Virus record (IMG/VR): IMGVR_UViG_2925939204_000001
Strand: one strand, 5' to 3'
Length of the DNA: 64,000 nt
Source of the DNA: a virus
Taxonomy: Duplodnaviria; Heunggongvirae; Uroviricota; Caudoviricetes
Position 1 is the stretch's first letter. Every line of letters starts with the position of its first letter. This document shows positions 601 to 63,579 of the stretch, one piece after another. The position numbers and the translations under genes are program-made. A model generated the notes under the pieces. The model was not told the origin of the DNA and made no database searches. It saw nothing but the letters and a program-made list of their open reading frames with translations.

Positions 601-1224
601 TTATTGCCCGTATTTTTTACACCATTGCTCTGCCATTTGTTTGGCTAAAGGCCCGGCTACTGCACTGTATTCTGCTGTTTTACTTTGCACACATGAAGCA
701 GATGGTTTTTTATTTCGCTGCTCGGTTAGTTTGCGCTCATAAGCCATCATGCTATCGAACCCGGCAATATCACTTTGGCGAAGCATTCCCTTTTTAACCA
801 AAAATTGCTGCCCCTCGGGCACCAGCGCAAGCATAAAAAGTGGTTGTAATAACTCACCTAATCCTTGCTGGCGATACACTTCGAATTGCTGCCATCCCTG
901 ACTTAATCTGGAAAGAGTATCTTTGGTTGAATAACCTGTTTTTGTTATAGCTTTGTCCGTCAGATATGCTGTATATGCAAAAACGCAAAAGTCAGTTTTA
1001 CCAATAAACTGAGTTCCAACAGGCCGTAATGGAATGCCCTCTCTCTTGCAAAAGTCCATAATTGCCGCTTGTGAATGATCCCCACCAGCGTTATTCATAA
1101 CCTGCTGCCCTGCCCTGAATTGTGCAGGTAACGCAGTTGCATTGGCTGTATTAACAGATACGCATCCCAACATAGCCGCGAGCGCGGTCCCTAAAACCCT
1201 TAACTTCACTACACCGTCCTTCAT
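601..1224 (-). CDS. secreted/periplasmic protein, unknown function
   Basis: ORF track; hydrophobic signal-like N-terminus (LRVLGTALAAMLGCVSVNTANA); co-directional with 188..580. Confidence 0.5.
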   Translation of the reverse strand: MKDGVVKLRVLGTALAAMLGCVSVNTANATALPAQFRAGQQVMNNAGGDHSQAAIMDFCKREGIPLRPVGTQFIGKTDFCVFAYTAYLTDKAITKTGYSTKDTLSRLSQGWQQFEVYRQQGLGELLQPLFMLALVPEGQQFLVKKGMLRQSDIAGFDSMMAYERKLTEQRNKKPSASCVQSKTAEYSAVAGPLAKQMAEQWCKKYGQ

Positions 1225-1439
1225 GTAAACAAAATGAAGTTTTATGTTACAAAAACAATCAACTACATCAACATGATTTAGGCCAAATTTCGGTCAAAAA
1301 ATAAAATCCACAAAAAGTGGTTGACACTATTTTGGAAATCACAAACTGCACATAATCCATCGCGCTAACGGCTCCCGTTGAAGGTTCTTTTGACGATTAA
1401 CTTTCAGCCGAAGCGCGGTAGGGAGTCATAACGCCAAAG

Positions 1440-1466
1440 CAGGCCGCCATGTGCGGCCTTTTTTTG
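1440..1466 (+). terminator. rho-independent terminator hairpin (GGCCGC-CATGT-GCGGCC then T7) about 26 nt before the next start codon
   Basis: Perfect 6-bp GC stem plus TTTTTTT read directly at 1442-1465. Confidence 0.55.
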
Positions 1467-1492
1467 TATCCGTCATCCGTGGAGGAAGGACA

Positions 1493-2146
1493 ATGGAAAA
1501 GATCGCAATATTCAGCCTGACCACCAGCAAGCCTCAAATGCTCACTGCAATACTGAAAGACGGTGCTCTCATTATTAACGAAGTAAAACCCCTTCCCGCG
1601 TCAGCATTGGAGCAAAAGCAAAAAATTCCTCCAGCCATAGCAGCCCTGCGGAAAAGCAAATTTAAGGTACTGGTAGACGAAATTACGCCAACGATCTCCG
1701 CTGGCACCGGAGCAAGCCAGGTGACTCTCAAGACCCGTCATGCCGATGGCAGAGCAGCAATCATCGTCGGGATGGAAAGATACAGAGAGTTAAAACTCCA
1801 GAAGCTATTATCCCTGCCGCAAAATAACAAAGGTGCTTTCGAAATCCCCGACTCTATCGTTGATACCGAATACAACGGTAACGGAGAAGAAGTCTACAGG
1901 GTGAACTGGCAGGATATCAGGCCGGAGCATATTCTGATGATCCTGTGTTGCTACGCGACCGTATACCACAACGTTGCCAGTGCGGATTACGTAGAGCAGA
2001 TGACCGGTACAGTCGATAAAGAGCAAAAAACAGGCATACTCGCTTCGTTCCTTTCCATTATTGGGCATGAAAAAGTTAAAGCAGGCACCTCCCAGCCAAA
2101 GTCACTGGCTGGGAAAGAAGTTGATGAAGATACCGTGATACTTTGA
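1493..2146 (+). CDS. hypothetical protein (about 217 aa)
   Basis: ATG at 1493 preceded by GGAGGAAGG; the ORF track start at 1451 is a GTG inside the terminator and is rejected. Confidence 0.55.
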   Translation: MEKIAIFSLTTSKPQMLTAILKDGALIINEVKPLPASALEQKQKIPPAIAALRKSKFKVLVDEITPTISAGTGASQVTLKTRHADGRAAIIVGMERYRELKLQKLLSLPQNNKGAFEIPDSIVDTEYNGNGEEVYRVNWQDIRPEHILMILCCYATVYHNVASADYVEQMTGTVDKEQKTGILASFLSIIGHEKVKAGTSQPKSLAGKEVDEDTVIL

Positions 2147-2474
2147 TCACATTAGTAGCTTTGTTAACTCCCTCAATACCAGGTAGAAGAGTAACAAAAA
2201 TATTGACGCGAGTATTTGAGTGGTCAATGAAGCGTTCATAAACAGATCAATTAGCATTAATAATTCGAAGATAACATCCATGTCATTCACTCCGTTTAAT
2301 TTTTAATCTAATGCCAGCAAATGAAGCTGGCCCCCGCATAAAGATTAATGAAAGTCACTTGTCACCAGTGAGGGGATTTATGAACCACATCCCCCTGAAC
2401 TGGTGGCCTGTCTGTTTCTCGCATTTCACACCCTGCATACAGTTTCCCCCAGGTTATGACTGAGAGGCTTTGTT

Positions 2475-2804
2475 ATGGGCTATAGCAGACTCGACGATAG
2501 GTACATTGAAGACGATATTTTTCGTGCGCTGTTTCACCAGGAAATGATTAAGCGGGTATCGGAGTATCACTCTGATAATTTCCAGTACACGATAAAGATT
2601 GATGAAGTATATCGTTCAGACCTTGCAGCCTACAGGGCGTATGGCAATGCAGATTTGCGCTGGGTATTCCGGGTGCTGGTGGGCCATGAGTCAGAAATGG
2701 AAGAAATGCCCGCCGGGACCACGTTAACTCTTCCTGATGTGGCATGGCTGAGGAACAAGATCCGTGATTACGCGAGCGCGGAACCGGAGATAGAAAATGC
2801 CTGA
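2475..2804 (+). CDS. hypothetical protein, translationally coupled to the next gene
   Basis: ORF track; ATGCCTGA overlap with the 2797 start. Confidence 0.5.
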   Translation: MGYSRLDDRYIEDDIFRALFHQEMIKRVSEYHSDNFQYTIKIDEVYRSDLAAYRAYGNADLRWVFRVLVGHESEMEEMPAGTTLTLPDVAWLRNKIRDYASAEPEIENA

Positions 2805-3990
2805 TTTCCTGAAAAACCAGGACGGGCGCTATATCACTGACGGCCTGTCCTCTAAGGACTTCACGCGTTTATTCGAGCTTATCAGGAAAGAACAAACCCG
2901 TAAGCGCCGACAAGCTCACCGGACGCTGACGCCAGGTAGACTGAGGAACAAATCCGCCGAAGATATTCTCAAGTTAGGGAAGAAAAAAGGCGGCACGTTC
3001 TTCACGCGAGACGACCTGAAAGGTTTCGAAAAGCTACGGAGTAAAACGCGCGAAAAATATGACAGCAAGACGGCTGGCATCACATACGCCCAGCTGGTGG
3101 CATCCAGCCAGGCAATCGATATTAAGCGTGCAAATAACGCCGTGGATGACGGATCTGGTATCAAAAGAGCTACACCCGTATCTCTTCGCCACAACGTGAT
3201 TAATATCCGCGTAGAAGCATCGGATATATCCGTCCACCAGCACCATATCGTCCGGATACGCTTTGAAGAATGGGATCAGATGGTCGATAACATCGCAGAA
3301 GACGATAAATCAGCTCTGAAAATCACTAAATCACTGTGCGCCGGGCGGGTGTCTTTCGATTGTGACTGTGGTCGTCATCAATACTGGTATCGTTACATCG
3401 CTACTGCGGGTAACTTTGCCCTGGCCCCGCCAAAAGAATACGCCTATCCAAAAGTTCGCAACCCGAAGCTGCAAGGCGTCGCCTGTAAACACGTGATCCA
3501 CTCAATGACGCGGTTACAGTCCGCCAGTTGGCAAATGAGTATTGCTCGTGCGCTACAAAAGGCTGCAACGCAAATTGCATTTGGTGACGATCGCCGCCGT
3601 ACAACCAAACACTTCTCAAAAGAAGACGAGAAGGAGTTTAATCGCAATCGTAGCAGTAAAACGAACGTTGAAGCCGCCAAACGCGAATGGAGGCTCTATC
3701 AGAAGCGCCAGGCAGCTTTAAGTACAAAACTGGCAAAGGACAACGGCAAGATCGACAAACTACGTGACCAATTGACCAAGGCCAGAAAGTTGTCAGATGC
3801 ACAGAAAAAACGGGCGGCAGCAAAAGAAGCGGCCTTGCAACGTGAGAAACAGAAAAACAAGGAGCTTCAGCAACGCCTTGCCGATCAGTTCGCACTGAAG
3901 AAGCAGGCGTTCATTGATGCGCTTGTCATGGCTGGAACACCACCAGCACAAGCTGAAAAAATGTTCATGGAGTATGTAAAAAAAGCATAA
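2797..3990 (+). CDS. SWIM-type zinc-finger protein with a highly charged coiled-coil C-terminus
   Basis: CxCx(n)CxH pattern FDCDCGRHQYW...GVACKHVIH; K/R/E-rich C-terminal 120 aa. Confidence 0.5.
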   Translation: MPDFLKNQDGRYITDGLSSKDFTRLFELIRKEQTRKRRQAHRTLTPGRLRNKSAEDILKLGKKKGGTFFTRDDLKGFEKLRSKTREKYDSKTAGITYAQLVASSQAIDIKRANNAVDDGSGIKRATPVSLRHNVINIRVEASDISVHQHHIVRIRFEEWDQMVDNIAEDDKSALKITKSLCAGRVSFDCDCGRHQYWYRYIATAGNFALAPPKEYAYPKVRNPKLQGVACKHVIHSMTRLQSASWQMSIARALQKAATQIAFGDDRRRTTKHFSKEDEKEFNRNRSSKTNVEAAKREWRLYQKRQAALSTKLAKDNGKIDKLRDQLTKARKLSDAQKKRAAAKEAALQREKQKNKELQQRLADQFALKKQAFIDALVMAGTPPAQAEKMFMEYVKKA

Positions 3991-3997
3991 ACCACAC

Positions 3998-4034
3998 ATA
4001 GCCTAGCTGCCTAGGCTAGGCTTTCATCTTTTTG
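3998..4034. terminator. hairpin AGCCTAG-ctgc-CTAGGCT followed by a T-tract, between convergent genes
   Basis: Inverted repeat at 4000-4017 then ...tttcatctttttg. Confidence 0.45.
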
Positions 4035-4752
4035 AAAAATCAATTTCCGTTTTATCAAATAAATTTGAAATATCAGCAACCAATTTATTAAAATCATGAT
4101 CGCCATTATAAAGCGAAGTCTTCTTTATTGCCATTACAAAATCATATAACTTTTCTGGGGAGTCAATACCAACCCCTCTACTTTTAAAAAGCTCAATGAT
4201 AACTCCAACATCATCATATAATAACTTTATTGCCGCCATAATCTCTTTTTGCTGCCTAAGCAATCTCTCAAGTTCATTTTTATTTTCATCCATAATTCTT
4301 TTGTTGAATTGTGTATCATTAATACTTTTTATTATTTCAGCCTCTTTTATTTGCAACGCCTTTCTTTTATTTTGATCCATGTCAGCATCCAAATACCTTA
4401 TCTCTGTGTATATTTTACTTGTTAGCTTTGATACGCAAAGAGTGACAATCGGAGCTGCAATTGATGCAATAATTCCAAAAATAAATGGCAAGAAAAAATG
4501 ATAAAACCAAGGAGACAAAACGCCTTCATAAACTAGAGGAATCTTACCTCCAACAAATGTTACAGATAAAGTATATAGGATATCATCCTTTGACTTCATC
4601 AATATTAGTATATCTTTCCAATTAATAATTAGAAAAGAAATTAATATATATGCAAACACTTTATTAAAAAGCTTGTCTTTTATGGCATCTCCAAAAGATA
4701 CTTTGATTAGATCATTTTCAGTCAATTTTTCTGTTGATGAATCTGTATTCAT
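4024..4752 (-). CDS. AT-rich membrane protein (two predicted TM helices) with cytoplasmic coiled-coil; candidate abortive-infection/exclusion effector
   Basis: Strongly AT-rich coding region versus neighbours; hydrophobic segments VFAYILISFLIINW and WFYHFFLPFIFGIIASIAAPIVTLCV; K/E-rich heptad C-terminus. Confidence 0.5.
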   Translation of the reverse strand: MNTDSSTEKLTENDLIKVSFGDAIKDKLFNKVFAYILISFLIINWKDILILMKSKDDILYTLSVTFVGGKIPLVYEGVLSPWFYHFFLPFIFGIIASIAAPIVTLCVSKLTSKIYTEIRYLDADMDQNKRKALQIKEAEIIKSINDTQFNKRIMDENKNELERLLRQQKEIMAAIKLLYDDVGVIIELFKSRGVGIDSPEKLYDFVMAIKKTSLYNGDHDFNKLVADISNLFDKTEIDFSKR

Positions 4753-4814
4753 ATAAACTACCGTGATTTCTAATATCTATTTTATGAAAATAGCTGTCAT
4801 CCAGACCGCCAAAC

Positions 4815-5174
4815 TCAAATACCAACCAAGCTTTCAAGAGGAATGCCAAACTGGGAATGTAAACGGCGAATCATAGGTAACGTCAAATTTCGTGTCCCAT
4901 TTAGCACTTCGTAAACACGATTTGACTTACCAATCGCCGGCTCCAGATCCTTCACGGTCAGCCCTTGCTGTTCCATACGGAATTTAATGGCCTCAATAGG
5001 TGATGGTGGCTCAATTGGGTAATGTTTTTTCTCGTACTCCTCAATGAGAAGACTCATAACCTCAAAGAAATCACCTTCCGGAGTATTCATTTCCGGTTCG
5101 TTATCGAACATCGGTTCGACCGCACGCAGTGCGGCCTCATAATCTTGTTCTGTACGGATAGGTTTAATGTTCAT
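4815..5174 (-). CDS. HigA-like HTH regulator/antitoxin (N-terminal domain plus C-terminal HTH, YgjM/COG5499 architecture), no cognate toxin adjacent
   Basis: C-terminal segment GLTVKDLEPAIGKSNRVYEVLNGTRNLTLPMIRRLHSQFGIPLESL matches the HigA C-terminal HTH pattern. Confidence 0.55.
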   Translation of the reverse strand: MNIKPIRTEQDYEAALRAVEPMFDNEPEMNTPEGDFFEVMSLLIEEYEKKHYPIEPPSPIEAIKFRMEQQGLTVKDLEPAIGKSNRVYEVLNGTRNLTLPMIRRLHSQFGIPLESLVGI

Positions 5175-5186
5175 TAATTACAAAGG

Positions 5187-5220
5187 AAAGCCCACTTGCT
5201 AAGTGGGCTTTTTGTATGTG
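5187..5220. terminator. palindromic hairpin AAAGCCCACTT-gcta-AGTGGGCTTT separating higBA from the downstream HTH gene
   Basis: Perfect 10-bp inverted repeat flanked by U-rich sequence on both strands. Confidence 0.5.
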
Positions 5221-5230
5221 TTTTACTATA

Positions 5231-5569
5231 TCAGGCTGCTTTTTTATTCAGGTTCCGCTGAGAAATAAATTTTTCAGCAGTATTGATACGACTTAACTCT
5301 TCCTGGACGCGCATATCATTTTCGACTTCCCACAGATCTACTGCGGTCTGAAGATTAATCCAAAAATCTACAGAAGTATCGAATGCTTTTGCCAGGCGAT
5401 ATGCCATATCCATCGTTAGCTTACGATTGTTATTAACAAGAGCGCTTACGGTGTTACGATGAACATGAAGTATTTCTGCTAACTCGTTGATCTTCAGCTC
5501 TAACGGCTCCAGGTATTCGTACAGCAGGATATCACCTACGGTCGTCGGTTTTCTGGTTGCCTGTTTCAT
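5231..5569 (-). CDS. higA: HigA-family antitoxin (XRE HTH, COG3093-type)
   Basis: HTH region LAEILHVHRNTVSALVNNNRKLTMDMAYRLAKAFDTSVDFWINLQ; directly downstream of the HigB-like toxin. Confidence 0.75.
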   Translation of the reverse strand: MKQATRKPTTVGDILLYEYLEPLELKINELAEILHVHRNTVSALVNNNRKLTMDMAYRLAKAFDTSVDFWINLQTAVDLWEVENDMRVQEELSRINTAEKFISQRNLNKKAA

Positions 5570-5639
5570 TTTTTGCCCTTACTAGCGTGCGTATTAAGTG
5601 GACTCTGGTCAGAACCCGGTCCGTAACCGGGTATCTGTT

Positions 5640-5942
5640 TTAGTATTTGTGAGGGTCGAGATACAAGTCCTCGGCCTTTCCGTTAACCCACTTAAAAATT
5701 AACCTATATTGCTTATTCACCCTTACTGATGAATAGCCATTTAGCTTCCCTGACAGTTCCTCATACCGATTACCTGGTGGTGATCTTAAATCCTTACAGG
5801 TAGTTGCGGCATTGATAATGTCCAACTTCCGTGACAATGTCATATGAATATCAGGAGGTATCTTTCTATGTGGTGTTGAAAATTCAAAAAAATCATCAAG
5901 CCACGCATCCCTGAAATCCTTTATGTTAATTTTTTTGGTCAT
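5640..5942 (-). CDS. higB: HigB toxin (RelE/ParE fold, plasmid maintenance killer family)
   Basis: C-terminal pattern NRYEELSGKLNGYSSVRVNKQYRLIFKWVNGKAEDLYLDPHKY typical of HigB; toxin-upstream-of-antitoxin order. Confidence 0.8.
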   Translation of the reverse strand: MTKKINIKDFRDAWLDDFFEFSTPHRKIPPDIHMTLSRKLDIINAATTCKDLRSPPGNRYEELSGKLNGYSSVRVNKQYRLIFKWVNGKAEDLYLDPHKY

Positions 5943-6104
5943 TAGTCATTTGATCCTCCGTGATGATTACCGAATGCCATAACTATAGCGCACCGTTGCA
6001 CTGTGCGCAAGTGCATTTTATGAATTCCCCCTCCTTCATCCAAAATCACAATCTCCCGAAAATCTTCCTTTCGATACCTGACAGATCGACCTTTGAGGAT
6101 GCTT

Positions 6105-6896
6105 ATGGGCCGTTTTGACGAATGGTTTGCTGACGATGCAAACCTGGCAAGTAAGGAGTCAGAACATGACAGCACGCAGAGAGAAACGCCAGCGCCGATT
6201 GAAGCGAATGCAGGAGGCGCGCCGGAACATGGCAATACCGGTTCGGATTCATTCAGCATTCTGGAAGAGCAACCCGCCGCCAAAGCTGATAGCCATGATA
6301 ATTTTGCTGATAGCAACGGTGGCCTTACTCCGGATGCTGGCGAATCAGATATAGCCATACTTCCATCTTCCCTGGCTGGCAGAGAACCGACTCCACAGTT
6401 AAAAGCACGCTATAACGGGCATAAAGCCTTTAACGACCAAATCCGCGCAGACTGGATGCTGATTATTGAATCCAGCCCAGACGCGTTTCAGGCTCTCTTA
6501 TATCGACCAGATGTTGGCACATATGGGGTAGTCAGCGACGAAACAGGAGAAGAGTCATTCACTGAACTGGATAACAACCAACGCGAACTGACTTACCAGG
6601 AACCTGAAATCGTTTATGTGCTGGATAACCCTGACGGGCGTGACTCTTTCCATGCGATTGACGCAGACGGTGAGCAGGATGGCTTAACCGATGATGTTCT
6701 GATTCTGCGTATTGCAGCAAATAACGTCCCCGTCGGCTCAATTCTTGAATGGAATGAAGAGATGGTAAACGGCGTAGCGCGCCGCTGGTGGTACGTGCAC
6801 CGTATTTTTAGCTACGGCACACAGCATGTTGGTTCGCTTTACTACTGCATACCTGCCAGGAATTTTGATACGACTCAAAACGGAGTGATCGAATGA
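6105..6896 (+). CDS. phage protein with acidic low-complexity N-terminal half
   Basis: ORF track (6093); ATG at 6105 has better GAGG spacing. Confidence 0.5.
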   Translation: MGRFDEWFADDANLASKESEHDSTQRETPAPIEANAGGAPEHGNTGSDSFSILEEQPAAKADSHDNFADSNGGLTPDAGESDIAILPSSLAGREPTPQLKARYNGHKAFNDQIRADWMLIIESSPDAFQALLYRPDVGTYGVVSDETGEESFTELDNNQRELTYQEPEIVYVLDNPDGRDSFHAIDADGEQDGLTDDVLILRIAANNVPVGSILEWNEEMVNGVARRWWYVHRIFSYGTQHVGSLYYCIPARNFDTTQNGVIE

Positions 6897-7660
6897 CTTC
6901 AAATAAAACCCTCCTGGCGCGAACAGGTGAATGGCAAACCTCACGTACAGGAAAATTCCAGACCACGGGCTTTGAAAACGTGGATAACGCGTTTGCGACG
7001 CTAATCAGCAACATTTTTTCTGATATCTTACTGGTGGCCCCCGCGCCGGAAGAAAAACGCTTTGCGTCATTCCTGAATCGTCCACCAGCAGAGCGTGTCT
7101 ATGTGGCCCGTTTCGACAATGCGATCGAGTTTCTTAAAGCAGTTCGTCGCGCAAATGCCGGGCAAGGGAGAAAACCTGAAAACCAGAACATTAACCGGGA
7201 TGCTCTCCCCCTGGTCAATATCTCACGCACTATGGATATCAATTATATCAACGATGATCAGCAGATTGACCGCAAAAAAGTAGCCAGTTTTTGCGAACCG
7301 GATACCGGAATGCCTTTAGCAGAACTGGAATACACCCAGGCCATTCTGACGTATGACGTTACGTTAATGGCAACTGATAAAGCGACCATGAGTCTGATGT
7401 GTAATTCGCTGGGCGCACGGCTTCGCCTGATGACAGGTACACAATTTGAAGCAACCACTCACCTTGTTCGTGTCCCGGTCCCGCTGATTTGCTCGATACA
7501 GGATGCCAAAGAAGTCGGCTTTACGGATGTTTCAGCACCAATTGGAGAAGAGCGTATTTATGCCACACAAGCGCCGATAAGTGTGATTGCAGACGTGATC
7601 ACAGCATGGGAGTTGGACGCAAAACGTATTATTACCGAAACCTCGATATCTATGGGGTGA
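6893..7660 (+). CDS. phage structural protein (baseplate candidate)
   Basis: ORF track; overlapping-stop coupling within the 6105-9294 operon. Confidence 0.4.
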   Translation: MTSNKTLLARTGEWQTSRTGKFQTTGFENVDNAFATLISNIFSDILLVAPAPEEKRFASFLNRPPAERVYVARFDNAIEFLKAVRRANAGQGRKPENQNINRDALPLVNISRTMDINYINDDQQIDRKKVASFCEPDTGMPLAELEYTQAILTYDVTLMATDKATMSLMCNSLGARLRLMTGTQFEATTHLVRVPVPLICSIQDAKEVGFTDVSAPIGEERIYATQAPISVIADVITAWELDAKRIITETSISMG

Positions 7661-7663
7661 TAA

Positions 7664-8644
7664 GTGGCCCAGGAGTTACAACAATATTTTCTACAGTCAG
7701 TGCTCATTAACGATAACAAAGTGCCACGAGACTGGATTTTTACCGCAGTATATGTAGAAAAAACCAGCCTCAAAGCCCCTTTGCTAAAACTGGAAATTCA
7801 TGACGCTACCGGCACCGTAATTGATGACTGGAAAGCCAAATACGGTGCATCGCTGGTGGCTGAAATGGGCGATCCAAACGGTAATGCAGGCACTTTTAAA
7901 ACAGATTTCTTTGTTACGTCTGCAATGCTGGCTGGTGATGTTGTTACCGTTATTGCTGTCAGTGAAGACGTGCGCAGGTTTAAGATCCCCTCCCCGCGCA
8001 CAAATTTACATACCAACAAAACACCAGACGCTATATTCAAGGCATATTCCGGCAAACTTAAAATTACCAGCAGCGTGCTAAAACGCGCAGTTACATATCA
8101 TCTGAATGCCGGTGACAAACCGTCAAAAATGCTTTCGGAGATAGCGCGAGACAAAGGTGCATTGTGTTGGGTATGTCGGGGGGAATTTAACTTTTACACC
8201 CTGGCTGATCTGATGAAGCAAACGCCATCATTTACCTACGAGGGGAATAACCCTAAAGCAGAATACACTTTGTCCAAAATGCGCCTACTCCAACAGGAAC
8301 ATGCGACAACAGCAAAGAATCAATATCGTTTTGTTGGGTATTCCATGACCGATGGCTACGTCGAATATGGCGATAGCTCACTCCCAGTGCGTTATATATC
8401 CGACTCTGATATGGAAACTCTTCGCAATATGCAGCTGTCTCTCGTCCCCAAAATGGATATAGAAGTCGCAGGCAATCCTGATATAAAACCGGGGATGGTA
8501 ATAGAGATTATCGTATACCGCTATGACCAGGAAAACCGCATTGATGAATCAATGCCCCGTAAGCTGATAGTAAAAAATGTTGCGCACTTTGAGGACCGCG
8601 TAGGCTACACAACACGAATGATATTGGGAGTGCCTAACAAATGA
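7664..8644 (+). CDS. phage structural protein (baseplate candidate)
   Basis: ORF track; operon context. Confidence 0.4.
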   Translation: MAQELQQYFLQSVLINDNKVPRDWIFTAVYVEKTSLKAPLLKLEIHDATGTVIDDWKAKYGASLVAEMGDPNGNAGTFKTDFFVTSAMLAGDVVTVIAVSEDVRRFKIPSPRTNLHTNKTPDAIFKAYSGKLKITSSVLKRAVTYHLNAGDKPSKMLSEIARDKGALCWVCRGEFNFYTLADLMKQTPSFTYEGNNPKAEYTLSKMRLLQQEHATTAKNQYRFVGYSMTDGYVEYGDSSLPVRYISDSDMETLRNMQLSLVPKMDIEVAGNPDIKPGMVIEIIVYRYDQENRIDESMPRKLIVKNVAHFEDRVGYTTRMILGVPNK

Positions 8645-9294
8645 AGCGTAGAGCGCAAATTGTTGGAACTGTGCACCCGGCAGGGCTTATGCGTGCTCAA
8701 GTCCGTGTTTTACCTGACTGGAATGGCGTTCCTGATGACGATCTACCCTGGGCGGAATACCAGTTACCCATCGGGAACGCTTTTGTACCTACAGTCAAAG
8801 GTGACCTGGTCTGGGTAGAGTTTCCTTATTTAGATGTTAACGGTCGAATAGACACCAGACGCCCAATGATAGTTGGTGCCGCTCAGGATGCACCGGGAGG
8901 AATTCCAAACGTTGCACCAGAAGCATCTGGTAAAGGCAACGGCTGGACGCCGCCGGAAGTAGATGGAGCACCTCCCCGCCCCCAAATCTCAGCAACGAAA
9001 GACTTCGTTATTCACCGCAACAATATTCTTGAAGTACGAACTGCTGGTGGCGGCTATGAAATTGCCAATACGGCAGCAGGCTCAAGGATTGGCATGAATG
9101 AGTCCGGGCAGATATATATCATTGGTCCGGCTGATGTAATCGTGAATGCAGGAGGGAGTGTTAACGTCAAATCAGCCAACAACATCAATGTTAATGGGGA
9201 AAATATAGCTGTCACCGCTAACGGAGACATAGCTTTCAAGGCAGGAGGAACCTTTCAGGCCACTGCTGGCAACTTCGATTTCAAGAAAGGATAG
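8641..9294 (+). CDS. baseplate central spike protein (gpV-like)
   Basis: N-terminal OB-fold-like region and C-terminal repeated beta-helix motifs (NVNGENIAVTANGDIAFKAGGTFQATAGNFDF). Confidence 0.6.
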   Translation: MKRRAQIVGTVHPAGLMRAQVRVLPDWNGVPDDDLPWAEYQLPIGNAFVPTVKGDLVWVEFPYLDVNGRIDTRRPMIVGAAQDAPGGIPNVAPEASGKGNGWTPPEVDGAPPRPQISATKDFVIHRNNILEVRTAGGGYEIANTAAGSRIGMNESGQIYIIGPADVIVNAGGSVNVKSANNINVNGENIAVTANGDIAFKAGGTFQATAGNFDFKKG

Positions 9295-9303
9295 AAAATG
9301 CAC

Positions 9304-9347
9304 CCATTTGTGTTAGATAATTAATATGTATTTTCTAACACAAATGG
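9304..9347. promoter_or_regulatory. perfect 14-bp inverted repeat CCATTTGTGTTAGA-N16-TCTAACACAAATGG just upstream of the rdgC-like gene; member of a dispersed TGTGTTAGAAAA motif family
   Basis: Read directly; same core recurs at seven or more other intergenic sites. Confidence 0.5.
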
Positions 9348-9353
9348 TGAGAC

Positions 9354-10259
9354 ATGAGATCAGTCGCTTTCAAAAATATCTTCATCTATCGTCTTTCACG
9401 CGAAGTTAGCTGGGATACTGCAGAAGTAAATGCAGCCCTTAGCAAGTTTGTGTTTACCCCATGCGGTTCTCAGGATATGGCTAAAGCTGGTTGGACCTCC
9501 GTTCTTGGTGACAACCTCACCCATGAATACCAGGGTTTTCTTCTGATACAGCATAAACGAGAGGAAAAAATCCTACCTTCTCAAGTGCTCAAAGAAGAGT
9601 TACAGAAAAAAATCCTGACACTTGAAGAAGAGCAAGACAGAAAGCTGAAGAAGACCGAAAAAGATTCGCTGAAGGATGAAGTGCTTCACTCTCTTCTTCC
9701 TCGTGCTTTCACGAGAAAATCACTCGCCAAAATCCTGATCGACCGCAGCAACCATCTGGTATTCGTTGAGGCAAGCAGCGCCAAAAAGGCAGAGGACCAG
9801 CTGGCTTTATTGCGAAAATCGCTCGGCAGCCTGCCTGTCATTCCATTCACACCACGCGAACCGCTGGAAATTACAATGACCGAGTGGTTTAAAAACGGCT
9901 TCCCTGCCGGATTTACAGCAGGTGAAGACGCCACATTAAAGGGTCTGCTCGATAATGGTGGTGCCGTTCGCTGCAACAAAGTTGATCTACAGTCCGACGA
10001 GATTATGTCTCACATTGAGGCGGGGAAAGTAGCTACGACCGTTGCAATTAACTGGATGGACCGCGCGTCGTTCAGAGTCAACGATGATATGAGTATCAAA
10101 GCCCTGACATTCTGTGATGATCTCTATGACCAGAACGACGATATCGACCGGGAGGATGTAGCACAACGATTTGATGCTGATTTCGTGCTCTTTACGGGCG
10201 AATTATCTGCACTGTTTAACGCGCTGGTGGAGGCCATTGGCGGTGAAGCAGAACGTTAA
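9354..10259 (+). CDS. rdgC: recombination-associated protein RdgC homologue (P1 HrdC-like)
   Basis: Near colinear similarity to E. coli RdgC as recalled ([34 protein letters not shown], [15 protein letters not shown]). Confidence 0.85.
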
Positions 10260-12399
10260 CCTTCGATATGGTTCAGTTTGCAGTGGAATTGAAGCCGCGA
10301 GCATTGCCTGGGAACCGTTGGGTATGCGTCCGGCGTGGTTTGCTGAAATTGAGCCTTTTCCATCTGCCGTTCTTGCGCACCGCTGGCCTCATATCGCCAA
10401 CCTTGGCGATATGACAAAACTTGCCAAAAAAGTCCTGGCTGGGGAAATCGAATCCCCTGATGTGCTCGTCGGGGGAACACCTTGTCAGGCATTCAGTATC
10501 GCGGGATTACGTGGTGGGCTTGATGATGAGCGCGGCGCGCTAACTTTGAAGTATGTGGAGCTTGCAAATGCAATTGACGACAAACGGTCTGAGTCCTTCC
10601 TCAAACCGACAGTTATCGTCTGGGAAAATGTCCCAGGAGTCCTGTCATCGGCAGATAACGCCTTCGGATGTTTCCTTGCCGGATTGGCTGGAGAAGATGC
10701 ACCATTTGAACCAGGTGATCGACCTGAATCAGGAAAAAGTAACGCGTTCTGGCGGTGGGATGGCAAAACCGGTTGCCATGCTCCAAAGTGGCCGCAGTGT
10801 GGTTGTATTTATGGACCGCAGCGAAAGGTGGCCTGGAGAATACTTGATGCCCAATACTTCGGAGTGGCACAACGACGCCGACGCGTGTTTGTTGTCGCAA
10901 GTGCTCGAACAGACCTCGATCCCGCAACGGTACTTTTTGAGTTCGAAGGCGTGCGCCGGGATATTGCGCCGAGCAGAGGCGAGGGGAAGGAAGTTGCCGG
11001 AAATGTTGGAAATGGCATTAAAAGCGGGAGCCATTGGGATAACCCTGTAAATCCTCACCCGACACTTGCCCGATCGCACAATACCGGCGGGACGGGTGCA
11101 AGCAACCAGGAGATTTTTTCACAGCGCGGAAGTGGGCTTGTCGGTGCTTACCGGATGGTAGCATTTGGTGAGTATGCGGATGATGAGGCGGCTTCCACGG
11201 TCAAGGCCAGAGATTTTAAGGATGCAACCGACCTGGCTGTTTTTGACAGTGCGAACGTCGGAGTGGCAGTACGTCGCTTAACGCCTGTCGAGTGCGAACG
11301 CCTGCAGGGCTTTCCTGACGGGCACACGTTGATCCCTACGGAAAAGCGTAAAAAAGTTTCTTCAGATGAACTGGCATACCTTCGCAATCACTATCCAGAT
11401 TTAAGCGAAGAAGAGGCCGCGATGCTTGCAGCTGACGGACCGCGTTACAAAGCGATCGGCAACAGCATGGCAGTTCCTGTTATGCAATGGATAGGGTGTC
11501 GCATTCTTGCGACCGTAGCGGATAAACAGCAAAAAACAATAAATACCATTACCTACACAAGAAAACTCCGGACTCCGGATGAATATGAACGCCCAATATT
11601 CAAATGGGTAGGCGGTAAATTCTCAGAGTTGCCTACAGTGCTTGAGCATCTACCACACGGCAAGCGGTTAATAGAACCATTCGTTGGTGGCGGTTCCGTA
11701 TTTACGAATGCAGGATTTCGCCACAACCTGCTTAATGATATTAACGGTGACCTGATTAACTTCTATCAGACATTGCAGCGAGAGGGACATTCGCTCGTCA
11801 CGCTGGCATATAGTTTTTTCAAAAATTACAACAACGCTGACGCTTACCTCGAAGTGCGCGAGGCATTTAACAGAGGAAAGTATGACCAGCTACATCATGC
11901 TGCCGCCTTTTTGTACCTTAATCGGCACTGTTTTAATGGCGTAACGCGGTACAACCAAAATGGCGAGTTCAACGTGGGGTATGGCAAATACAAAGCGCCC
12001 TACTTCCCACATGCAGAGATGGAGGCATTTTTGGCTGATGACGTACTCAAAAACACGTCCTTTGTATCAGGTGACTTTGCTGGCGTCATCGAGGCGGCTG
12101 GTGAAGGCGATGTGATTTTTTGCGATCCGCCGTATGAACCGCTGCCGGATACAGAAGGGTTTACCAGTTATTCAGGAAATAGCTTCCGTTTCGACGAACA
12201 GAAACGGCTGGTATCTCTATTGGTGGAAGCCCACCAGCGCGGCGCTAAGGTAGTGATAACAAATAGTGGTGCGCCAAACATCCGTGAACTATATGAACGA
12301 AACGGGTTTAAAGTACATCATATGGCAGCCAGACGGTCGGTGTCCTGCAAGGCGTCAACACGTGTAGTTGCTAACGATATAATTGCAATAATGAAGTAA
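10243..12399 (+). CDS. bifunctional DNA methyltransferase: N-terminal C5-cytosine MTase fused to C-terminal Dam-type N6-adenine MTase (P1 Dmt-like)
   Basis: C5 motifs [30 protein letters not shown]; Dam motifs KWVGGK and DPPY; GTG at 10243 after GGAGG is the likely start (ORF opens at 10171). Confidence 0.85.
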
Positions 12400-18940: not shown

Positions 18941-18966
18941 GCTTCACAAAATCTATATAGCTATTT

Positions 18967-19000
18967 TATGTTAGAAAAATAATTTGAATTTTCGAACATA
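18967..19000. promoter_or_regulatory. operator-like inverted repeat TATGTTAGAAAA-N10-TTTTCGAACATA upstream of the immunity module 1 promoter
   Basis: Read directly; member of the TGTGTTAGAAAA family. Confidence 0.45.
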
Positions 19001-19031
19001 AACAATAAAATAAATCATCAAAAATTTGATG

Positions 19032-19060
19032 TTGATCTTCCATGTTTTCAGGCTTATATT
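19032..19060 (+). promoter_or_regulatory. sigma70-type promoter of immunity module 1 (TTGATC, 17-bp spacer, TATATT)
   Basis: Hexamers and spacing read directly; identical promoter at 52682-52710. Confidence 0.55.
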
Positions 19061-19139
19061 CACGCCGTTGCAGCAAATTCTGCGACCGGGTTTAGCAGCC
19101 TGAATGTACATGCGGACAACCGCAGATATCCGATATTGC

Positions 19140-19258
19140 GGTATTTTTGTGTCCGTAAAACCATGTTACGCCCGAATTATGGTGGGGCGTGATGGGGAGG
19201 CTTCGGCCTGCTGGTTTCATGTACGCCAGTCTGCTAACCCCGTCACGTCCTGCCACCC
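19140..19258 (+). ncRNA. c4: c4-like antisense regulatory RNA of an immI-like operon (module 1)
   Basis: RNA elements b' (catgtac, 19218-19224) and a' (ctgctaac, 19231-19238) are complementary to a1/b1 (19090-19112) and to a2/b2 (19259-19296) overlapping the icd RBS, as in the P1 c4 system. Confidence 0.55.
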
Positions 19259-19307
19259 GTTTAGCAGCGGGTAGCAGGTTGTTAAACCTGTACATGAGGC
19301 CGTAACT

Positions 19308-19523
19308 ATGGTTAATGCCAATCCTTGCGCACGCCCGGAATTTATCTGGCGCTTTTATTCCTGCACAAAACACACCTACATCAGCGTAATGGCAGCTACT
19401 GAGGCTGAAGCGCGTTCATTTCTTCCTACAGATCCATGCATTTTTGCCGCTCGCTTTAAACTCGATGCTCTGGACGTTTTGACCTACTGGAACCGCCCAA
19501 TGAACTGCGTGGAGGTGCATTAA
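19308..19523 (+). CDS. icd: Icd-like small protein (host cell division inhibitor family)
   Basis: N-terminal RPEFIWRF motif; position between c4-like RNA and ant; RBS overlapped by the b2 antisense target. Confidence 0.6.
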   Translation: MVNANPCARPEFIWRFYSCTKHTYISVMAATEAEARSFLPTDPCIFAARFKLDALDVLTYWNRPMNCVEVH

Positions 19524-20521
19524 TGGACGCAGTAACTATCAATAACAAACCATTCCCGACTCTCGAATATAAAAATCAGCGTGTAGTGACCTTTGAGATG
19601 ATTGATGAGGTGCACGAACGTGTTGATGGGGCAGCCAGGGGAACATTTAAGCGAAACAGAAGTCGTTTCATTGAAGGGGTGGATACTTATGTTATTGATT
19701 ATTCTGAAAAGGGCTTTTTAAGCCCATTTGGAATTGATGTCCCCCCGCGCGGTTTGCGCGTGTTCACTGAGTCCGGCTATCTGATGATTGTTAAGTCATT
19801 CAATGACGATCTGGCCTGGCAAGTGCAACGTGAGCTGGTAAACAGCTATTTTCGTATTAAGCAATTAATACCGGAGCACTCACCGCTAAAATCAAAAGCC
19901 GAAATCCTGGCCGAAATGGCGCAAATGCATCTTGAGCATGAACGCCGGATCAACGCCGTAAATGCCCAGGTAGCCGAGGTATCAGCACAAGTATCGATGG
20001 TCGCTGAAACACTCGAGCAAATCAAGAAAGGCAATATTCCGGAAGGCTACATTGGCTACCGCCAGCTGGCGGCGAAATGTGGCCTGACTGAAGCAAAATG
20101 TCGCAACCTGGTCAACGCTTACCGGATTCCCACCGATACGCATGAGTTTTTAACTCCCGATGGTTTGCTTGCGCGACGCTCCATTGTGGCCCTGGCCCCC
20201 TTCCGGAAAGCCTTTAAGCAGGTGATGTCGGAGGCAGAACCACGCAATAAACGCTGGTATCATCCAAAGATGGGGATGTTTCAGGCAATCCACCATCCTG
20301 TGCCTGAAAGCCCAAAGGATAATCTGTCACTACATACCGTCAGAGAGAAGATCAGGACTGGATACGCAACAGTGTGTCGTCGTTCTTCCTGGCCTGAAGG
20401 TATATGGGTGTGGCCCGAAGGTGGATCACGAAAGCACTGGCGCACTATCCGGGACGGGAAAATCCATGCTATTGATTTAGCGCCAGAGGATATTGTTGCT
20501 ACGGACTGGATTGTTAGTTAA
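19523..20521 (+). CDS. ant: antirepressor Ant with C-terminal DUF2829 (Tad2-like) domain
   Basis: TAATG-coupled to icd; central region identical to the module 2 Ant (IKKGNIPEGYIGYRQLAAKCGLTEAKCRNLVNAYRIPTDTHEFLTP); last ~65 aa homologous to the free-standing ORF 53885..54085. Confidence 0.7.
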   Translation: MDAVTINNKPFPTLEYKNQRVVTFEMIDEVHERVDGAARGTFKRNRSRFIEGVDTYVIDYSEKGFLSPFGIDVPPRGLRVFTESGYLMIVKSFNDDLAWQVQRELVNSYFRIKQLIPEHSPLKSKAEILAEMAQMHLEHERRINAVNAQVAEVSAQVSMVAETLEQIKKGNIPEGYIGYRQLAAKCGLTEAKCRNLVNAYRIPTDTHEFLTPDGLLARRSIVALAPFRKAFKQVMSEAEPRNKRWYHPKMGMFQAIHHPVPESPKDNLSLHTVREKIRTGYATVCRRSSWPEGIWVWPEGGSRKHWRTIRDGKIHAIDLAPEDIVATDWIVS

Positions 20522-20556: not shown

Positions 20557-20961
20557 CTAAAAATCTGTTCGCTGTCGCCATGCGTTTTTTAACTCAGGAA
20601 TATCCGCCATTTCAATTAACTTGCGAAGTCCAGCACTGACTTTCCCATTGCCAACCATAGCAAGCCAATCTCTTACTGCTTTCGGCATGTAGAGCGTTGC
20701 AGTTACCGGCTCTTCAACCCTGGCAGGACATCCGCATACAGGCCATTTAACTGATTCCATAACTTCGGATGCCGGGGTGAGGGCGGGGACATTGAGTATA
20801 TCTCTACCAGAAAACTGGATAACGATCCGTTCAGCGAGCGAGAGTATCTCACTTTCGGCAAGAATTGATGCCAACTGCGCCTCAACAAGAAAGCGACTTG
20901 TTGTGTTCAGAGAGTGGCTCTTAGCGCCATTTTTATACGAAACAAAGATTCGATACGCCAT
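20557..20961 (-). CDS. hypothetical protein, possible regulator
   Basis: ORF track; operator-like motif TGTGTTAGAAAA (20975-20986) lies in its upstream region. Confidence 0.4.
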   Translation of the reverse strand: MAYRIFVSYKNGAKSHSLNTTSRFLVEAQLASILAESEILSLAERIVIQFSGRDILNVPALTPASEVMESVKWPVCGCPARVEEPVTATLYMPKAVRDWLAMVGNGKVSAGLRKLIEMADIPELKNAWRQRTDF

Positions 20962-21119
20962 AACTCTAATGATTTGTGTTAGAAAACTAAAATTAAATCA
21001 CATAACAACATGCGTGTTAATAGATTTTATTTTACTAAACCTATTGACTAAATCACAAAGTAGGTATTGTTAGCCCGTCAAAAGAACCTTCACGCCGCGC
21101 CCGAATTTAGGGCTTAACC

Positions 21120-28310: not shown

Positions 28311-28607
28311 TTGAGGGCATTTTTTACATCATCAATCCATCAGCAATGAAGGCATTCTTTACATATTTCAATAATATCAATCAGTTAACACAGTGAATGA
28401 TAATAAAAAAGCGCAATAAGAATGCACGATACGCACGATATTGGTTGAGGGCGATTTTTACATAATCCTTACATATCAATATGTTATATAAAAACACAAC
28501 TTGCTAATAACGAGATACATGCAATTAAGATGTAAAAATTGCCCTCAATTGCCGATCGTTAAGGGCAAATTCTACACCTTGAGAGGGGTGTAAAAATTGC
28601 CCTTAAG
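28311..28607. repeat. iteron cluster downstream of repA (copy-control locus candidate): five or more copies of the ~19-bp TGAGGGCAA-T-TTACA(CC) iteron in both orientations
   Basis: Copies at about 28311, 28445, 28529 (inverted), 28558, 28588 (inverted). Confidence 0.6.
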
Positions 28608-29391: not shown

Positions 29392-29500
29392 TTTTTACAC
29401 CACTTTGAGGGCAATTACTACACCTTTTGAGGGCAAATCTTACACCTTCTGAGGGCAAATCTTACACCGATCGTATTTAATTGAGGGCAAATCTTACACC
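29383..29500. repeat. five direct 19-bp iterons TGAGGGCAA(A/T)T(C/T)TTACACC at 22-24 bp spacing upstream of repA (origin)
   Basis: Copies at 29383, 29406, 29428, 29450, 29482; inverted copy at 29623. Confidence 0.75.
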
Positions 29501-29660: not shown

Positions 29661-29746
29661 CAAAGATCTTCATTCAATCCCCATCGCAAATCACACACTC
29701 CCTATCCTCTGGAAAATGAACAGATACCTGCTTTTCGGAGGAATAA

Positions 29747-37491: not shown

Positions 37492-37582
37492 TAATTCTTC
37501 CCCCGCATTTGGGGGAACAACGGAAATCACAAACTGAGCATACTCTCCTTTGGTTCATTGCTTATGAAGGGGCTATGTTCGT

Positions 37583-51380: not shown

Positions 51381-51486
51381 TCGCCTCGTTAAGTTAAATT
51401 TCTAACATAGTGTATTTATATACACTGTTGATCCTGGTGGATGGGATCGAGTAGGATCGCGGTCACTGCTCCGGTAGCGACTGCCA

Positions 51487-52595: not shown

Positions 52596-52630
52596 TGTGT
52601 TAGAAAATTAATTTGCTGTTTCTAAATCGG
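52596..52630. promoter_or_regulatory. operator-like site TGTGTTAGAAAA-N-TTTCTAA upstream of the immunity module 2 promoter
   Basis: Read directly. Confidence 0.45.
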
Positions 52631-54085: not shown

Positions 54086-54088
54086 AGC

Positions 54089-62460: not shown

Positions 62461-62955
62461 TTGTTGTTATTATTTCGCATATTTACTATCAATGTGTGTG
62501 TTAGAAAAATAGCGCGAAAGAGAAGGCGTCGCAGTGAATATTCTGAAACATCCCCACATGCCGCAGCTCTTAGAGAACTGGAGAAAAACCCAGATCTAAT
62601 CAAAAGGAACCATGAGCATTACGAGCAGGTTCGCGTCCTGGACTGGATGTATCGCAATATGCGTTATGTGTATGAGCATACTCACGCCACTCCAAACGGT
62701 GGCCTGCGAGGCATAAGGACGGCAATAAAAATGGTGGCAGAGGGCCAAAAGAAGGGATATCCCGATCTTTCTATAGACCTTGCTTGTGGGGGATACCACG
62801 GAATGCGCATTGAGATGAAACATGGGAGAAATCGCCTGACTCCCGAACAACTCGTCTGGATGACTCGCCTCACAGAAGCCGGTTACTACTGCTTTGAGGC
62901 GCGCAGTGCCGCTGAAGCCATAAAAGCTATCACGGAGTATGTTTGTCTTGATTAA
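62461..62955 (+). CDS. VRR-NUC domain nuclease (PD-(D/E)xK); true start likely internal
   Basis: GYPDLSIDL...GMRIEMKHG motif pattern; operator-like TGTGTTAGAAAA at 62497-62508 upstream. Confidence 0.5.
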   Translation: MLLLFRIFTINVCVRKIARKRRRRSEYSETSPHAAALRELEKNPDLIKRNHEHYEQVRVLDWMYRNMRYVYEHTHATPNGGLRGIRTAIKMVAEGQKKGYPDLSIDLACGGYHGMRIEMKHGRNRLTPEQLVWMTRLTEAGYYCFEARSAAEAIKAITEYVCLD

Positions 62956-63500: not shown

Positions 63501-63579
63501 TTTATTGCATCTTCCGATACTGTCATCAAACTAATAAAATATGTTAGAAAACTAATTTAACAAAGTAACGGGAATAGCA

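What the first reader, a model, noticed from the sequence alone, without database searches (positions are those of the whole stretch)
9304..9347. Dispersed operator-like motif TGTGTTAGAAAA at eight or more promoter-proximal sites
The core (T/A)TGTTAGAAAA, often as an inverted repeat with TTTTCTAACA, recurs in intergenic regions. Sites: 1245 (variant), 9304-9347 (perfect 14-bp palindrome arms), 18967-19000, 20975-20986, 51400-51409 (inverted), 52596-52630, 62497-62508, 63541-63552. Both immunity-module promoters carry it, resembling a single master repressor controlling many operons as P1 C1 does, but with a different sequence. The cognate repressor is not identified in this window.
Basis: seen in the sequence. 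Interest (0 to 1): 0.6.

Follow-up and report, generated by a model that had tools for sequence, protein, structure and literature searches.

The report
D6-type C1 repressor operator sites
The repeated TGTTAGAAAA motif is real and is most likely the set of binding sites through which the master repressor of a D6-like (P1-related) plasmid prophage keeps its early and immunity genes silent, so this is an expected kind of control system with its own recognition sequence.

Summary
The window is a D6-like, P1-family plasmid prophage of E. coli. TGTTAGAAAA occurs 6 times exactly, against 0.21 expected. A weight matrix finds nine strong half-sites at seven loci, all between genes or at a gene's 5' edge. 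The 1245 variant scores at noise level. Several sites are inverted pairs with a fixed 12-10-12 geometry.

The motif precedes hrdC, both c4-icd-ant immunity modules, pmgM and pmgS. In complete D6 it also precedes c1, lpa and ref. In P1, most of these operons carry C1 operators.

D6 orf1 is a distant C1 homologue: 21% identical to P1 C1, in the same PHROG, and its relatives hit Pfam PF27008. In the closest sequenced plasmid it lies about 9 kb beyond the window. A TGTTAGAAAA site sits just upstream of c1 in seven lineages whose C1 is 44-100% identical to D6 C1. The site is a conserved island among diverged flanks. The P1 operator sequence is absent.

The main rival, Lpa-dependent late promoters, is excluded. 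A different motif, AAATCACAnAC-N4-yAnnnT, marks nine late operons.

This is a new member of a known kind. C1 binding is inferred, not shown. I could not read the D6 genome paper to check for a prior description.

The parts
9304..9347 (.). Divalent operator immediately upstream of hrdC (RdgC-family; ATG at 9354). Half-sites are 9309-9320 (+) TGTGTTAGATAA and 9331-9342 (-) TGTGTTAGAAAA, with a 10-bp spacer.
   Evidence: 29.0 and 26.3 bits. In the near-identical plasmid the arms are unchanged while the spacer differs. RdgC domain.
18965..19002 (.). Divalent operator upstream of the second immI-like module (c4-a1b1 19054-19106, C4 RNA 19175-19260, icd, ORF6N antirepressor). Half-sites are 18967-18978 (+) and 18989-19000 (-).
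   Evidence: 14-nt arms, 93% complementary; 30.1 and 20.1 bits.
20975..20986 (+). Single site in the divergent gap between an orf52-like gene (20557-20961, minus strand) and capsid gene 23. Late-promoter boxes follow it at 20996 and 21050.
   Evidence: 29.8 bits. No partner arm.
51398..51409 (-). Weaker single site (TATGTTAGAAAT) in the pro/repL gap. It abuts the palindrome 51409-51426 and lies upstream of a terminator-like hairpin at 51496-51518. Its target is uncertain.
   Evidence: 18.5 bits. The D6 copy is more degenerate.
52596..52629 (.). Operator upstream of the first immI-like module (c4-a1b1 52704-52756, C4 RNA 52824-52909, icd 52957, Rha-type antirepressor 53181). The left arm 52596-52607 is the best site in the window. 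The right arm 52618-52629 is degenerate (4 of 12 mismatches).
   Evidence: 34.5 bits.
62497..62508 (+). Single site at the 5' end of pmgM (VRR-NUC). It lies downstream of a good sigma-70-like pair, TTTACA-16-TATTAT (62446-62473).
   Evidence: 21.7 bits. It is an island of conservation among diverged flanks.
63540..63551 (+). Single site 28 bp upstream of the pmgS start codon (ATG 63580).
   Evidence: 28.7 bits.
1243..1254 (+). Doubtful variant (TATGTTACAAAA) upstream of mat.
   Evidence: 9.0 bits, which is at noise level. It is kept only because P1 has Omat at the corresponding place and D6 has a similar variant.

Best explanation
The motif is the operator of the D6-type C1 repressor, the distant homologue of P1 C1. 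That gene is encoded about 9 kb beyond this window on the same kind of replicon.

The recognised unit is an asymmetric half-site, (T/A)(G/A)TGTTAGAAAA, usually followed by N-TAAttT. It occurs singly or as an inverted pair with exactly 10 bp between the 12-mers, which is 22 bp centre to centre, or about two helical turns.

In the lysogen, C1 bound at these sites would shut off many dispersed transcription units at once. These are the two c4-icd-ant antirepressor modules, hrdC-methylase, pmgM and pmgS, and possibly repL and mat. Outside the window they include lpa, ref and c1 itself. Silencing lpa in turn keeps all late operons off.

What is shown: enrichment, intergenic placement, conservation, the spacing rule, synteny with P1 operators, and linkage to c1.

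What is inferred: that C1 is the binding protein, that binding represses, and where the controlled promoters start.
For: Enrichment and placement:
- The motif is enriched and intergenic.

Link to the repressor:
- D6 orf1 and P1 C1 both match phrog_1678 (E 3e-170 and 3e-140).
- They align at 21% identity (E 2e-8).
- Relatives of D6 orf1 carry PF27008 Phage_P7_repressor_C1.
- A TGTTAGAAAA site lies a few tens of bp or less upstream of the c1 start codon in seven lineages whose C1 is 100, 90, 81, 70, 68, 51 and 44% identical to D6 C1.
- This includes a chimeric S. Typhi plasmid that keeps little of the phage beyond the cre-c1 segment.

Correspondence with P1:
- Sites precede the same operons as annotated P1 C1 operators, at similar distances.
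- Site to lpa ATG: 77 bp in D6 against 71 bp in P1.
- Site to c4-a1 leader: 108 bp in the window against 115 bp in P1.
- P1 C1 is documented to bind 22 dispersed asymmetric 17-bp operators and to control repL and lpa (PMC8546580).
- The P1-type operator is absent from the window.

Selection and geometry:
- In alignments of diverged plasmids the motif is a conserved island in otherwise diverged intergenic DNA.
- Of 21 partner arms with at most 4 mismatches, 16 sit at a gap of exactly 10 bp.
- At hrdC the spacer differs between two near-identical replicons (TAATATG against TAACGCG) while both arms are intact.

Rival excluded:
- Late operons carry a different motif.
Against: - No binding or expression data exist for this element, so the link to C1 rests on position, synteny and co-occurrence.
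- c1 is not in the window.
- The sites have the same geometry as P1 late promoters (9-bp box, 4 bp, then a -10-like hexamer) and lack a recognisable -35. The motif may therefore double as a promoter core.
- One site precedes capsid gene 23, which has no C1 operator in P1.
- The 51398 site is separated from repL by a terminator-like hairpin.
- The frequent 12-10-12 symmetry differs from the mostly single asymmetric sites of P1.
Confidence: 0.8

Rival explanations
1. The motif is the -22 box of Lpa-dependent late promoters, the D6 version of P1's AAGTGACTT-N4-TANNNT.
For: The geometry is identical: TGTGTTAGA + 4 bp + TAAttT against a 9-bp box + 4 bp + -10 in all 11 P1 late promoters. No consistent -35 is present. 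D6 Lpa is only 31% identical to P1 Lpa, so a new box sequence is expected. Sites precede gene 23, mat, pmgM and pmgS.
Against: A distinct motif, AAATCACAnAC-N4-yAnnnT, has 9 matches against 0.47 expected. All nine are co-oriented just upstream of late operons: mat, gene 7, gene 23, pmgB-sit, R-S-U, lydA, orf24, prt-pro and the peptidoglycan hydrolase. This mirrors P1's LPmat, LP23, LPsit, LPs, LPdar, LPpro and LPlyz. The TGTTAGAAAA motif is missing from those operons. It precedes lpa, c1, ref and the immunity modules, which are not late genes.
Confidence: 0.03
2. It is a shared early-promoter core read by RNA polymerase or a host factor, with no dedicated repressor.
For: A -10-like hexamer follows at a fixed distance, and most sites point toward the downstream gene.
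Against: Inverted pairs occur at a strict 10-bp gap. At hrdC the -10-like spacer is replaced in a near-identical plasmid while the arms are kept. The lpa site's best arm points away from lpa. At pmgM the site lies downstream of a better sigma-70 pair. P1 C1 operators are likewise mostly co-oriented and embed promoter hexamers.
Confidence: 0.08
3. It is bound by another DNA-binding protein of the element, such as the Rha/ORF6N-type antirepressors encoded downstream of two sites, or an unrecognised HTH protein.
For: The two antirepressors carry DNA-binding domains (ORF6N; HTH_24/Phage_pRha). Binding by C1 is untested.
Against: The two modules encode unrelated antirepressors yet share the same motif. 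In a Shigella plasmid no antirepressor gene is annotated in the 41-kb stretch examined, and a chimeric S. Typhi plasmid keeps only the cre-c1 segment, yet both keep the site upstream of c1. The motif tracks c1 across 44-100% identity.
Confidence: 0.07
4. It is a chance recurrence of an AT-rich word.
For: The word is AT-rich, and the 1243 variant is at noise level.
Against: 6 copies against 0.21 expected, with 0 of 100 shuffles reaching 6. 12 of 14 D6 sites lie in 10% of the genome (P = 9e-11). The motif is conserved at orthologous positions across diverged plasmids.
Confidence: 0.01

Closest known systems
Phage P1/P7 C1 repressor and its dispersed operators (Op/O sites; consensus ATTGCTCTAATAAATTT)
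   Same: - A homologous repressor family (phrog_1678, PF27008).
- Many operators scattered over a ~90-kb plasmid prophage.
- The same target operons (c1, lpa, ref, c4-icd-ant, hrdC/dmt, pmgR/S, mat) at similar distances.
- An asymmetric half-site, usually co-oriented with the gene.
- Both single and paired sites.
   Different: - The recognition sequence is different, with no P1-type operator within 3 mismatches.
- The repressor is only 21% identical and 62 residues longer.
- Paired sites are separated 12-10-12 inverted repeats, whereas P1's Oban pair overlaps.
- The co-repressor Lxc is reported missing from D6-like elements (PMC6799933).
- There are two immI modules instead of one.
P1 Lpa-dependent late promoters (-22 box AAGTGACTT, 4 bp, -10)
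   Same: The box-spacer-hexamer geometry is the same, and there is no -35.
   Different: The gene set is different. The D6-type late promoters are a separate motif, AAATCACAnAC-N4-yAnnnT.
Mycobacteriophage L5 gp71 'stoperators' (from my own knowledge, not checked here)
   Same: One repressor with many asymmetric sites spread through the genome and oriented with transcription. Some lie inside transcription units, where they would act as roadblocks, as the 62497 site might.
   Different: The protein family and host are unrelated, and those sites are 13 bp without paired 12-10-12 forms.

Membership tests
P1-type C1 repressor/operator regulon | The cognate repressor belongs to the C1 family | tested here: met
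   D6 orf1 and P1 C1 both match phrog_1678 and align at 21% identity, E 2e-8. Relatives carry PF27008 Phage_P7_repressor_C1. The gene is outside the window. It is present in the closest replicon, NZ_CP020051, at 70880-71917.
P1-type C1 repressor/operator regulon | Many operators dispersed over the genome, in intergenic control regions | tested here: met
   Nine strong half-sites at seven loci in the window. D6 has 14 sites with at most 1 mismatch, 12 of them intergenic.
P1-type C1 repressor/operator regulon | Operators precede c1 itself, lpa, the immI (c4-icd-ant) operon, ref, the dmt operon and pmgR/S | tested here: met
   Window sites lie at hrdC, both immI modules and pmgS. D6 sites lie at c1, lpa and ref. 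These were compared with the P1 annotation.
P1-type C1 repressor/operator regulon | Operator sequence matches ATTGCTCTAATAAATTT (P1/P7 immunity specificity) | tested here: not met
   0 matches with up to 3 mismatches. This is therefore a different specificity group, not a P1/P7-immune element.
P1-type C1 repressor/operator regulon | Asymmetric sites, each bound by a repressor monomer | tested here: inconclusive
   Single asymmetric sites exist (20975, 62497, 63540, and the one at c1). Five or six loci are 12-10-12 inverted pairs. Stoichiometry cannot be derived from sequence.
P1-type C1 repressor/operator regulon | C1 protein binds the sites and represses transcription | not testable with these tools
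   Needs EMSA or footprinting and reporter assays.
P1-type Lpa-dependent late promoter | 9-bp box, 4-bp spacer, -10 hexamer, no -35 | tested here: met
   TGTGTTAGA-AAAN-TAAttT, compared with the P1 late promoters.
P1-type Lpa-dependent late promoter | Located upstream of late morphogenesis, lysis and packaging operons, and not of regulatory or early genes | tested here: not met
   Late operons carry AAATCACAnAC-N4-yAnnnT instead. TGTTAGAAAA precedes c1, lpa, ref and immI.

The most novel reading that the evidence does not exclude
D6-type C1 may differ mechanistically from P1 C1. It would recognise a 10-12-bp half-site that is often arranged as a 12-10-12 inverted pair bracketing a -10-like hexamer. 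Two repressor molecules, or a dimer, would then clamp the promoter core on one face of the helix, and the operator itself would be a portable, repressible, -35-less promoter cassette. More broadly, C1-family operators in P1-like phage-plasmids may share a TTCTAA / TCTAA core whose lineage-specific flanks define immunity groups. Examples are P1 GCTCTAAT, D6 TTTTCTAACA, and tentatively Leclercia AGATTCTAAGG and Pantoea ACAnTTCTAAA.
Probability: 0.3. Interest if true: 0.45.

Novelty: new member of a known kind. Interest (0 to 1): 0.3.

Why it matters
D6-like plasmid prophages are common in E. coli, Salmonella and Shigella. A tblastn search with D6 C1 against PLSDB matched 148 plasmid records, 130 of them at 60% identity or more and the rest more distant relatives.

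Knowing the operator word defines their immunity specificity. It predicts which elements are hetero-immune to P1/P7. It also lists the C1 regulon: two antirepressor modules, a recombination/methylation operon, lpa, ref and c1.

The motif gives a ready-made set of repressible control regions for reporters or engineering. Together with the separate late-promoter motif, it yields a near-complete transcription map of the element from sequence alone.

It does not reveal a new kind of regulation.

Tried and rejected
- Literature access: the D6 genome paper (Gilcrease & Casjens 2018; DOI, PMC5800970 and PMID) and the P1 genome paper (PMC523184) are not held. I could not check whether D6 operators or late promoters were already described. 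The GenBank record annotates none.
- Literature search: full-text search for the motif string returned only unrelated papers. Searches on D6 plus operator or repressor gave nothing on operators.
- P1-type late promoters: a scan for AAGTGACTT-N4-TANNNT found only one perfect copy in the window, at 2342-2360 on the minus strand. It does not explain the late operons.
- Sigma-70 scans: consensus scans around four sites gave only weak 9/12 matches, no more than in shuffles. The controlled promoters remain unmapped.
- Spacing in other viruses: a viral-contig scan for the palindrome with a variable gap returned one orthologous D6-like site (the ref operator, gap 10) in 7 contigs. The rest were unrelated palindromes, so it added no independent evidence on spacing.
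- Distant C1 lineages: operator words derived for plasmids with about 30% C1 identity are post hoc and weak. Leclercia gave 4 against 1.4 expected (6 of 100 shuffles reach it). Pantoea gave 6 against 1.07.
- Structures: no solved structure exists for either C1. I did not predict one, because only 10 homologues were recovered.

Full report
WHAT THE WINDOW IS

Megablast places the window in phage D6 (MF356679), a P1-related plasmid prophage. The window's + strand equals the D6 minus strand. Window 1173-64000 corresponds to D6 72282 down to 9873, with several replaced segments.

The closest complete replicon found is the E. coli AR_0118 plasmid NZ_CP020051. It is 99.95% identical over window 11569-53863, 99.8% over 53864-64000, and 93-99% over 1173-10259.

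The D6 genes annotated as prophage repressor c1 (orf1) and late activator lpa (orf4) both lie outside the window. In NZ_CP020051 they sit about 9.2 kb and 5.9 kb beyond the window's right end.

CHECKING THE OBSERVATION

The sequence at 9304-9347 is as described. It is an 18-nt, 94%-complementary inverted repeat with perfect 14-nt arms.

TGTTAGAAAA occurs 6 times exactly against 0.21 expected. The 12-mer with at most one mismatch occurs 7 times against 0.39 expected.

I trained a weight matrix on non-redundant sites from the window and related replicons. It gives nine half-sites of 18-35 bits at seven loci:
- 9309/9331
- 18967/18989
- 20975
- 51398
- 52596
- 62497
- 63540

The '1245 variant' scores 9 bits, which is no better than shuffled sequence.

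All strong sites are intergenic or at a gene's 5' edge. In D6, which has a complete annotation, 12 of 14 sites lie in the 10.2% of the genome that is non-coding (P = 9e-11).

ANATOMY OF THE SITES

The conserved block is TGTGTTAGAAAA followed by N-TAAttT. Many sites have a second, inverted copy.

I scored partner arms at every offset from 0 to 30 bp in five replicons. Of 21 arms with at most 4 mismatches, 16 sit at a gap of exactly 10 bp. That is 22 bp centre to centre, or about two helical turns.

Paired sites precede hrdC, both immunity modules, ref, pdcB and lpa. Single sites precede c1, pmgS and pmgM, and one lies in the gap between orf52 and gene 23.

At hrdC the 10-bp spacer differs between the window (TTAATATGTA) and NZ_CP020051 (TTAACGCGTA), while both arms are identical. 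The arms, not the central -10-like hexamer, therefore appear to be the selected element.

THE MAIN RIVAL: LATE PROMOTERS

P1 late promoters are a 9-bp box (AAGTGACTT), 4 bp, then a -10 hexamer. They lack a -35 and depend on Lpa (annotation read, sequences; PMC10695390).

TGTGTTAGA-AAAN-TAAttT has exactly this geometry, and D6 Lpa is only 31% identical to P1 Lpa. This rival therefore had to be taken seriously.

Reading the regions upstream of the late operons revealed a different shared motif, AAATCACAnAC-N4-yAnnnT. It has 9 matches in the window against 0.47 expected. Each is co-oriented and about 40-150 bp upstream of a late operon:
- mat (1336)
- gene 7 (6043)
- gene 23 (21050)
- pmgB-sit (29688)
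- R-S-U (37524)
- lydA (42065)
- orf24 (47185)
- prt-pro (48633)
- the peptidoglycan hydrolase (54639, minus strand)

Eight of these operons show the same motif in D6. The set mirrors P1's LPmat, LP23, LPsit, LPs, LPdar, LPpro and LPlyz.

The TGTTAGAAAA motif is absent from those positions. In D6 it instead precedes lpa, c1 and ref. The late-promoter reading is rejected.

LINK TO C1

- Homology: D6 orf1 (345 aa) gave no tblastn hit on P1 and no hit in the local Pfam copy. However, D6 orf1 and P1 C1 both match phrog_1678 at E 3e-170 and 3e-140. They align pairwise at 21% identity (E 2e-8). Database relatives of D6 orf1 carry PF27008 Phage_P7_repressor_C1.
- Shared targets: P1 C1 binds 22 dispersed, asymmetric 17-bp operators (ATTGCTCTAATAAATTT) and controls repL and lpa among others (PMC8546580). 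The P1 record annotates operators at ref, mat, ssb, c4, kilA-repL, rlf, the uhr-hrdC-dmt operon, ban, 26, ppp, pmgR, pmgT and lpa. The D6-type motif precedes hrdC, both c4-icd-ant modules, pmgS (next to pmgR), lpa, ref and c1. More weakly, it also precedes mat and sits in the repL gap.
- Similar distances: site to lpa ATG is 77 bp in D6 against 71 bp in P1. Site to the c4-a1 leader is 108 bp in the window against 115 bp in P1.
- P1 operator absent: it has no match within 3 mismatches.

CO-OCCURRENCE AND CONSERVATION

I fetched about 40 kb around c1 from plasmids whose C1 is 90, 81, 70 and 68% identical to D6 C1. I also fetched contigs with 51% and 44% alleles.

All keep TGTTAGAAAA a few tens of bp or less upstream of the c1 start codon, and most keep it at the lpa, ref, pdcB, pmgS and pmgM positions. 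TGTTAGAAA is among the most frequent 9-mers of those loci.

A chimeric S. Typhi plasmid retains little of the phage beyond the cre-c1 segment, yet it still has the c1-proximal site.

Alignments show the motif as an invariant island in flanks that are otherwise diverged, and at ref and pmgM barely alignable.

Plasmids with about 30% C1 identity (Leclercia, Pantoea) lack the motif. They show other TTCTAA-core repeats in intergenic DNA, but statistical support for these is weak and post hoc.

HOW IT MOST LIKELY WORKS

In the lysogen, C1 occupies these sites. At paired sites, two recognition units clamp a 34-bp stretch that contains a -10-like hexamer. At hrdC this stretch ends 7 bp before the ATG. 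At pmgM the site lies downstream of a good TTTACA-16-TATTAT pair and could act as a roadblock.

At the two immunity modules the site sits where P1 has Oc4/Op51. It lies upstream of a second, conserved promoter-like pair, TTGATC-17-TATATT (19032-19060 and 52682-52710). This resembles the P1 arrangement of a C1-controlled promoter followed by a second, downstream promoter (sigma-70 promoters P2c4 and P1c4).

Repression of lpa, outside the window, would keep the nine late promoters silent.

These mechanistic steps are inferred. Sigma-70 consensus scans gave nothing above background, and no transcript or binding data are available.

COMPARISON AND NOVELTY

This is the P1 C1 system in a diverged lineage. 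It has the same protein family, the same logic and largely the same targets. It differs in three ways: a new recognition sequence, a regular 12-10-12 paired form, and no Lxc co-repressor according to PMC6799933.

It fails the P1/P7 operator-sequence test, so it is a separate immunity specificity rather than a P1-immune element.

I rate it a new member of a known kind. The D6 genome paper could not be read here. If that paper lists these sites, the finding is already known.

Interest is modest. A P1 specialist would expect D6 to have its own operators.

Noticed in passing
window 1336-1356, 6043-6063, 21050-21070, 29688-29708, 37524-37544, 42065-42085, 47185-47205, 48633-48653 (+) and 54639-54659 (-): A second dispersed motif, AAATCACAnAC-N4-yAnnnT, has 9 copies against 0.47 expected. 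Each lies just upstream of a late morphogenesis or lysis operon. It is most likely the D6-type Lpa-dependent late promoter, with a box sequence different from P1's AAGTGACTT.
   Followed up: yes
window 2342-2360 (-): A single perfect P1-type late promoter (AAGTGACTT-TCAT-TAATCT) lies in the mat/gene 26 gap and points toward a tiny ORF (D6 orf77). It is odd given that the element's other late promoters use a different box.
   Followed up: partly
window 19054-19260 and 52704-52909: There are two complete immI-type modules (c4-a1b1 leader plus C4 antisense RNA, Rfam RF03163/RF01695). They are followed by icd and two unrelated antirepressors: ORF6N-type at 19523-20521 and Rha-type at 53181-53888.
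   Followed up: yes
window 45921-47129 (+): A TnpB / IS605 OrfB-family gene (OrfB_IS605, Cas12f1-like TNB and HTH domains) lies in a stretch, about 45837-47173, that does not align to D6, in the region between ddrA and orf24.
   Followed up: partly
window, whole: The Chi sequence GCTGGTGG occurs 30 times (19 on + and 11 on -) against about 2 expected. It is the top 9-mer in all related loci examined.
   Followed up: partly
window 29383-29500 and 28529-28605: Eight 19-bp iterons (TGAGGGCAAATCTTACACC and variants) flank the RepB-family replication initiator gene (28603-29391, minus strand). This is presumably the plasmid origin and its copy-control locus.
   Followed up: no
window 51409-51426, 51496-51518, 51523-51550: Three features lie upstream of repL. 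The first is a perfect palindrome, AGTGTAT-TTAT-ATACACT, abutting the weak operator. The second is a terminator-like hairpin. The third is another inverted repeat, GTATAAATC-N10-GATTTATAC, just before repL, which may be a separate control site for lytic replication.
   Followed up: no
window 10171-12399 (+): The methyltransferase gene is a single 742-aa ORF. Its central part is 94-96% identical to P1/P7 dmt, whereas D6 has separate dcm- and dam-like genes here. This is a mosaic replacement between P1 and D6 lineages.
   Followed up: partly
window 33719-34146 and 39268-40419: Internal tandem repeats lie inside the sit (transglycosylase / tape-measure-like) gene, with a period of about 75 bp, and inside the tail-fibre S gene, with a period of about 300 bp. 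They appeared as staggered self-hits in BLAST.
   Followed up: no
L011 (Leclercia pE1_003) and L012 (Pantoea pPSP-26e): Plasmids whose C1 is only about 30% identical lack TGTTAGAAAA. They show other intergenic repeats built on a TTCTAA core (TAGATTCTAAGG; ACAnTTCTAAA). This hints that C1-family operators share a core with lineage-specific flanks. Statistical support is weak.
   Followed up: partly
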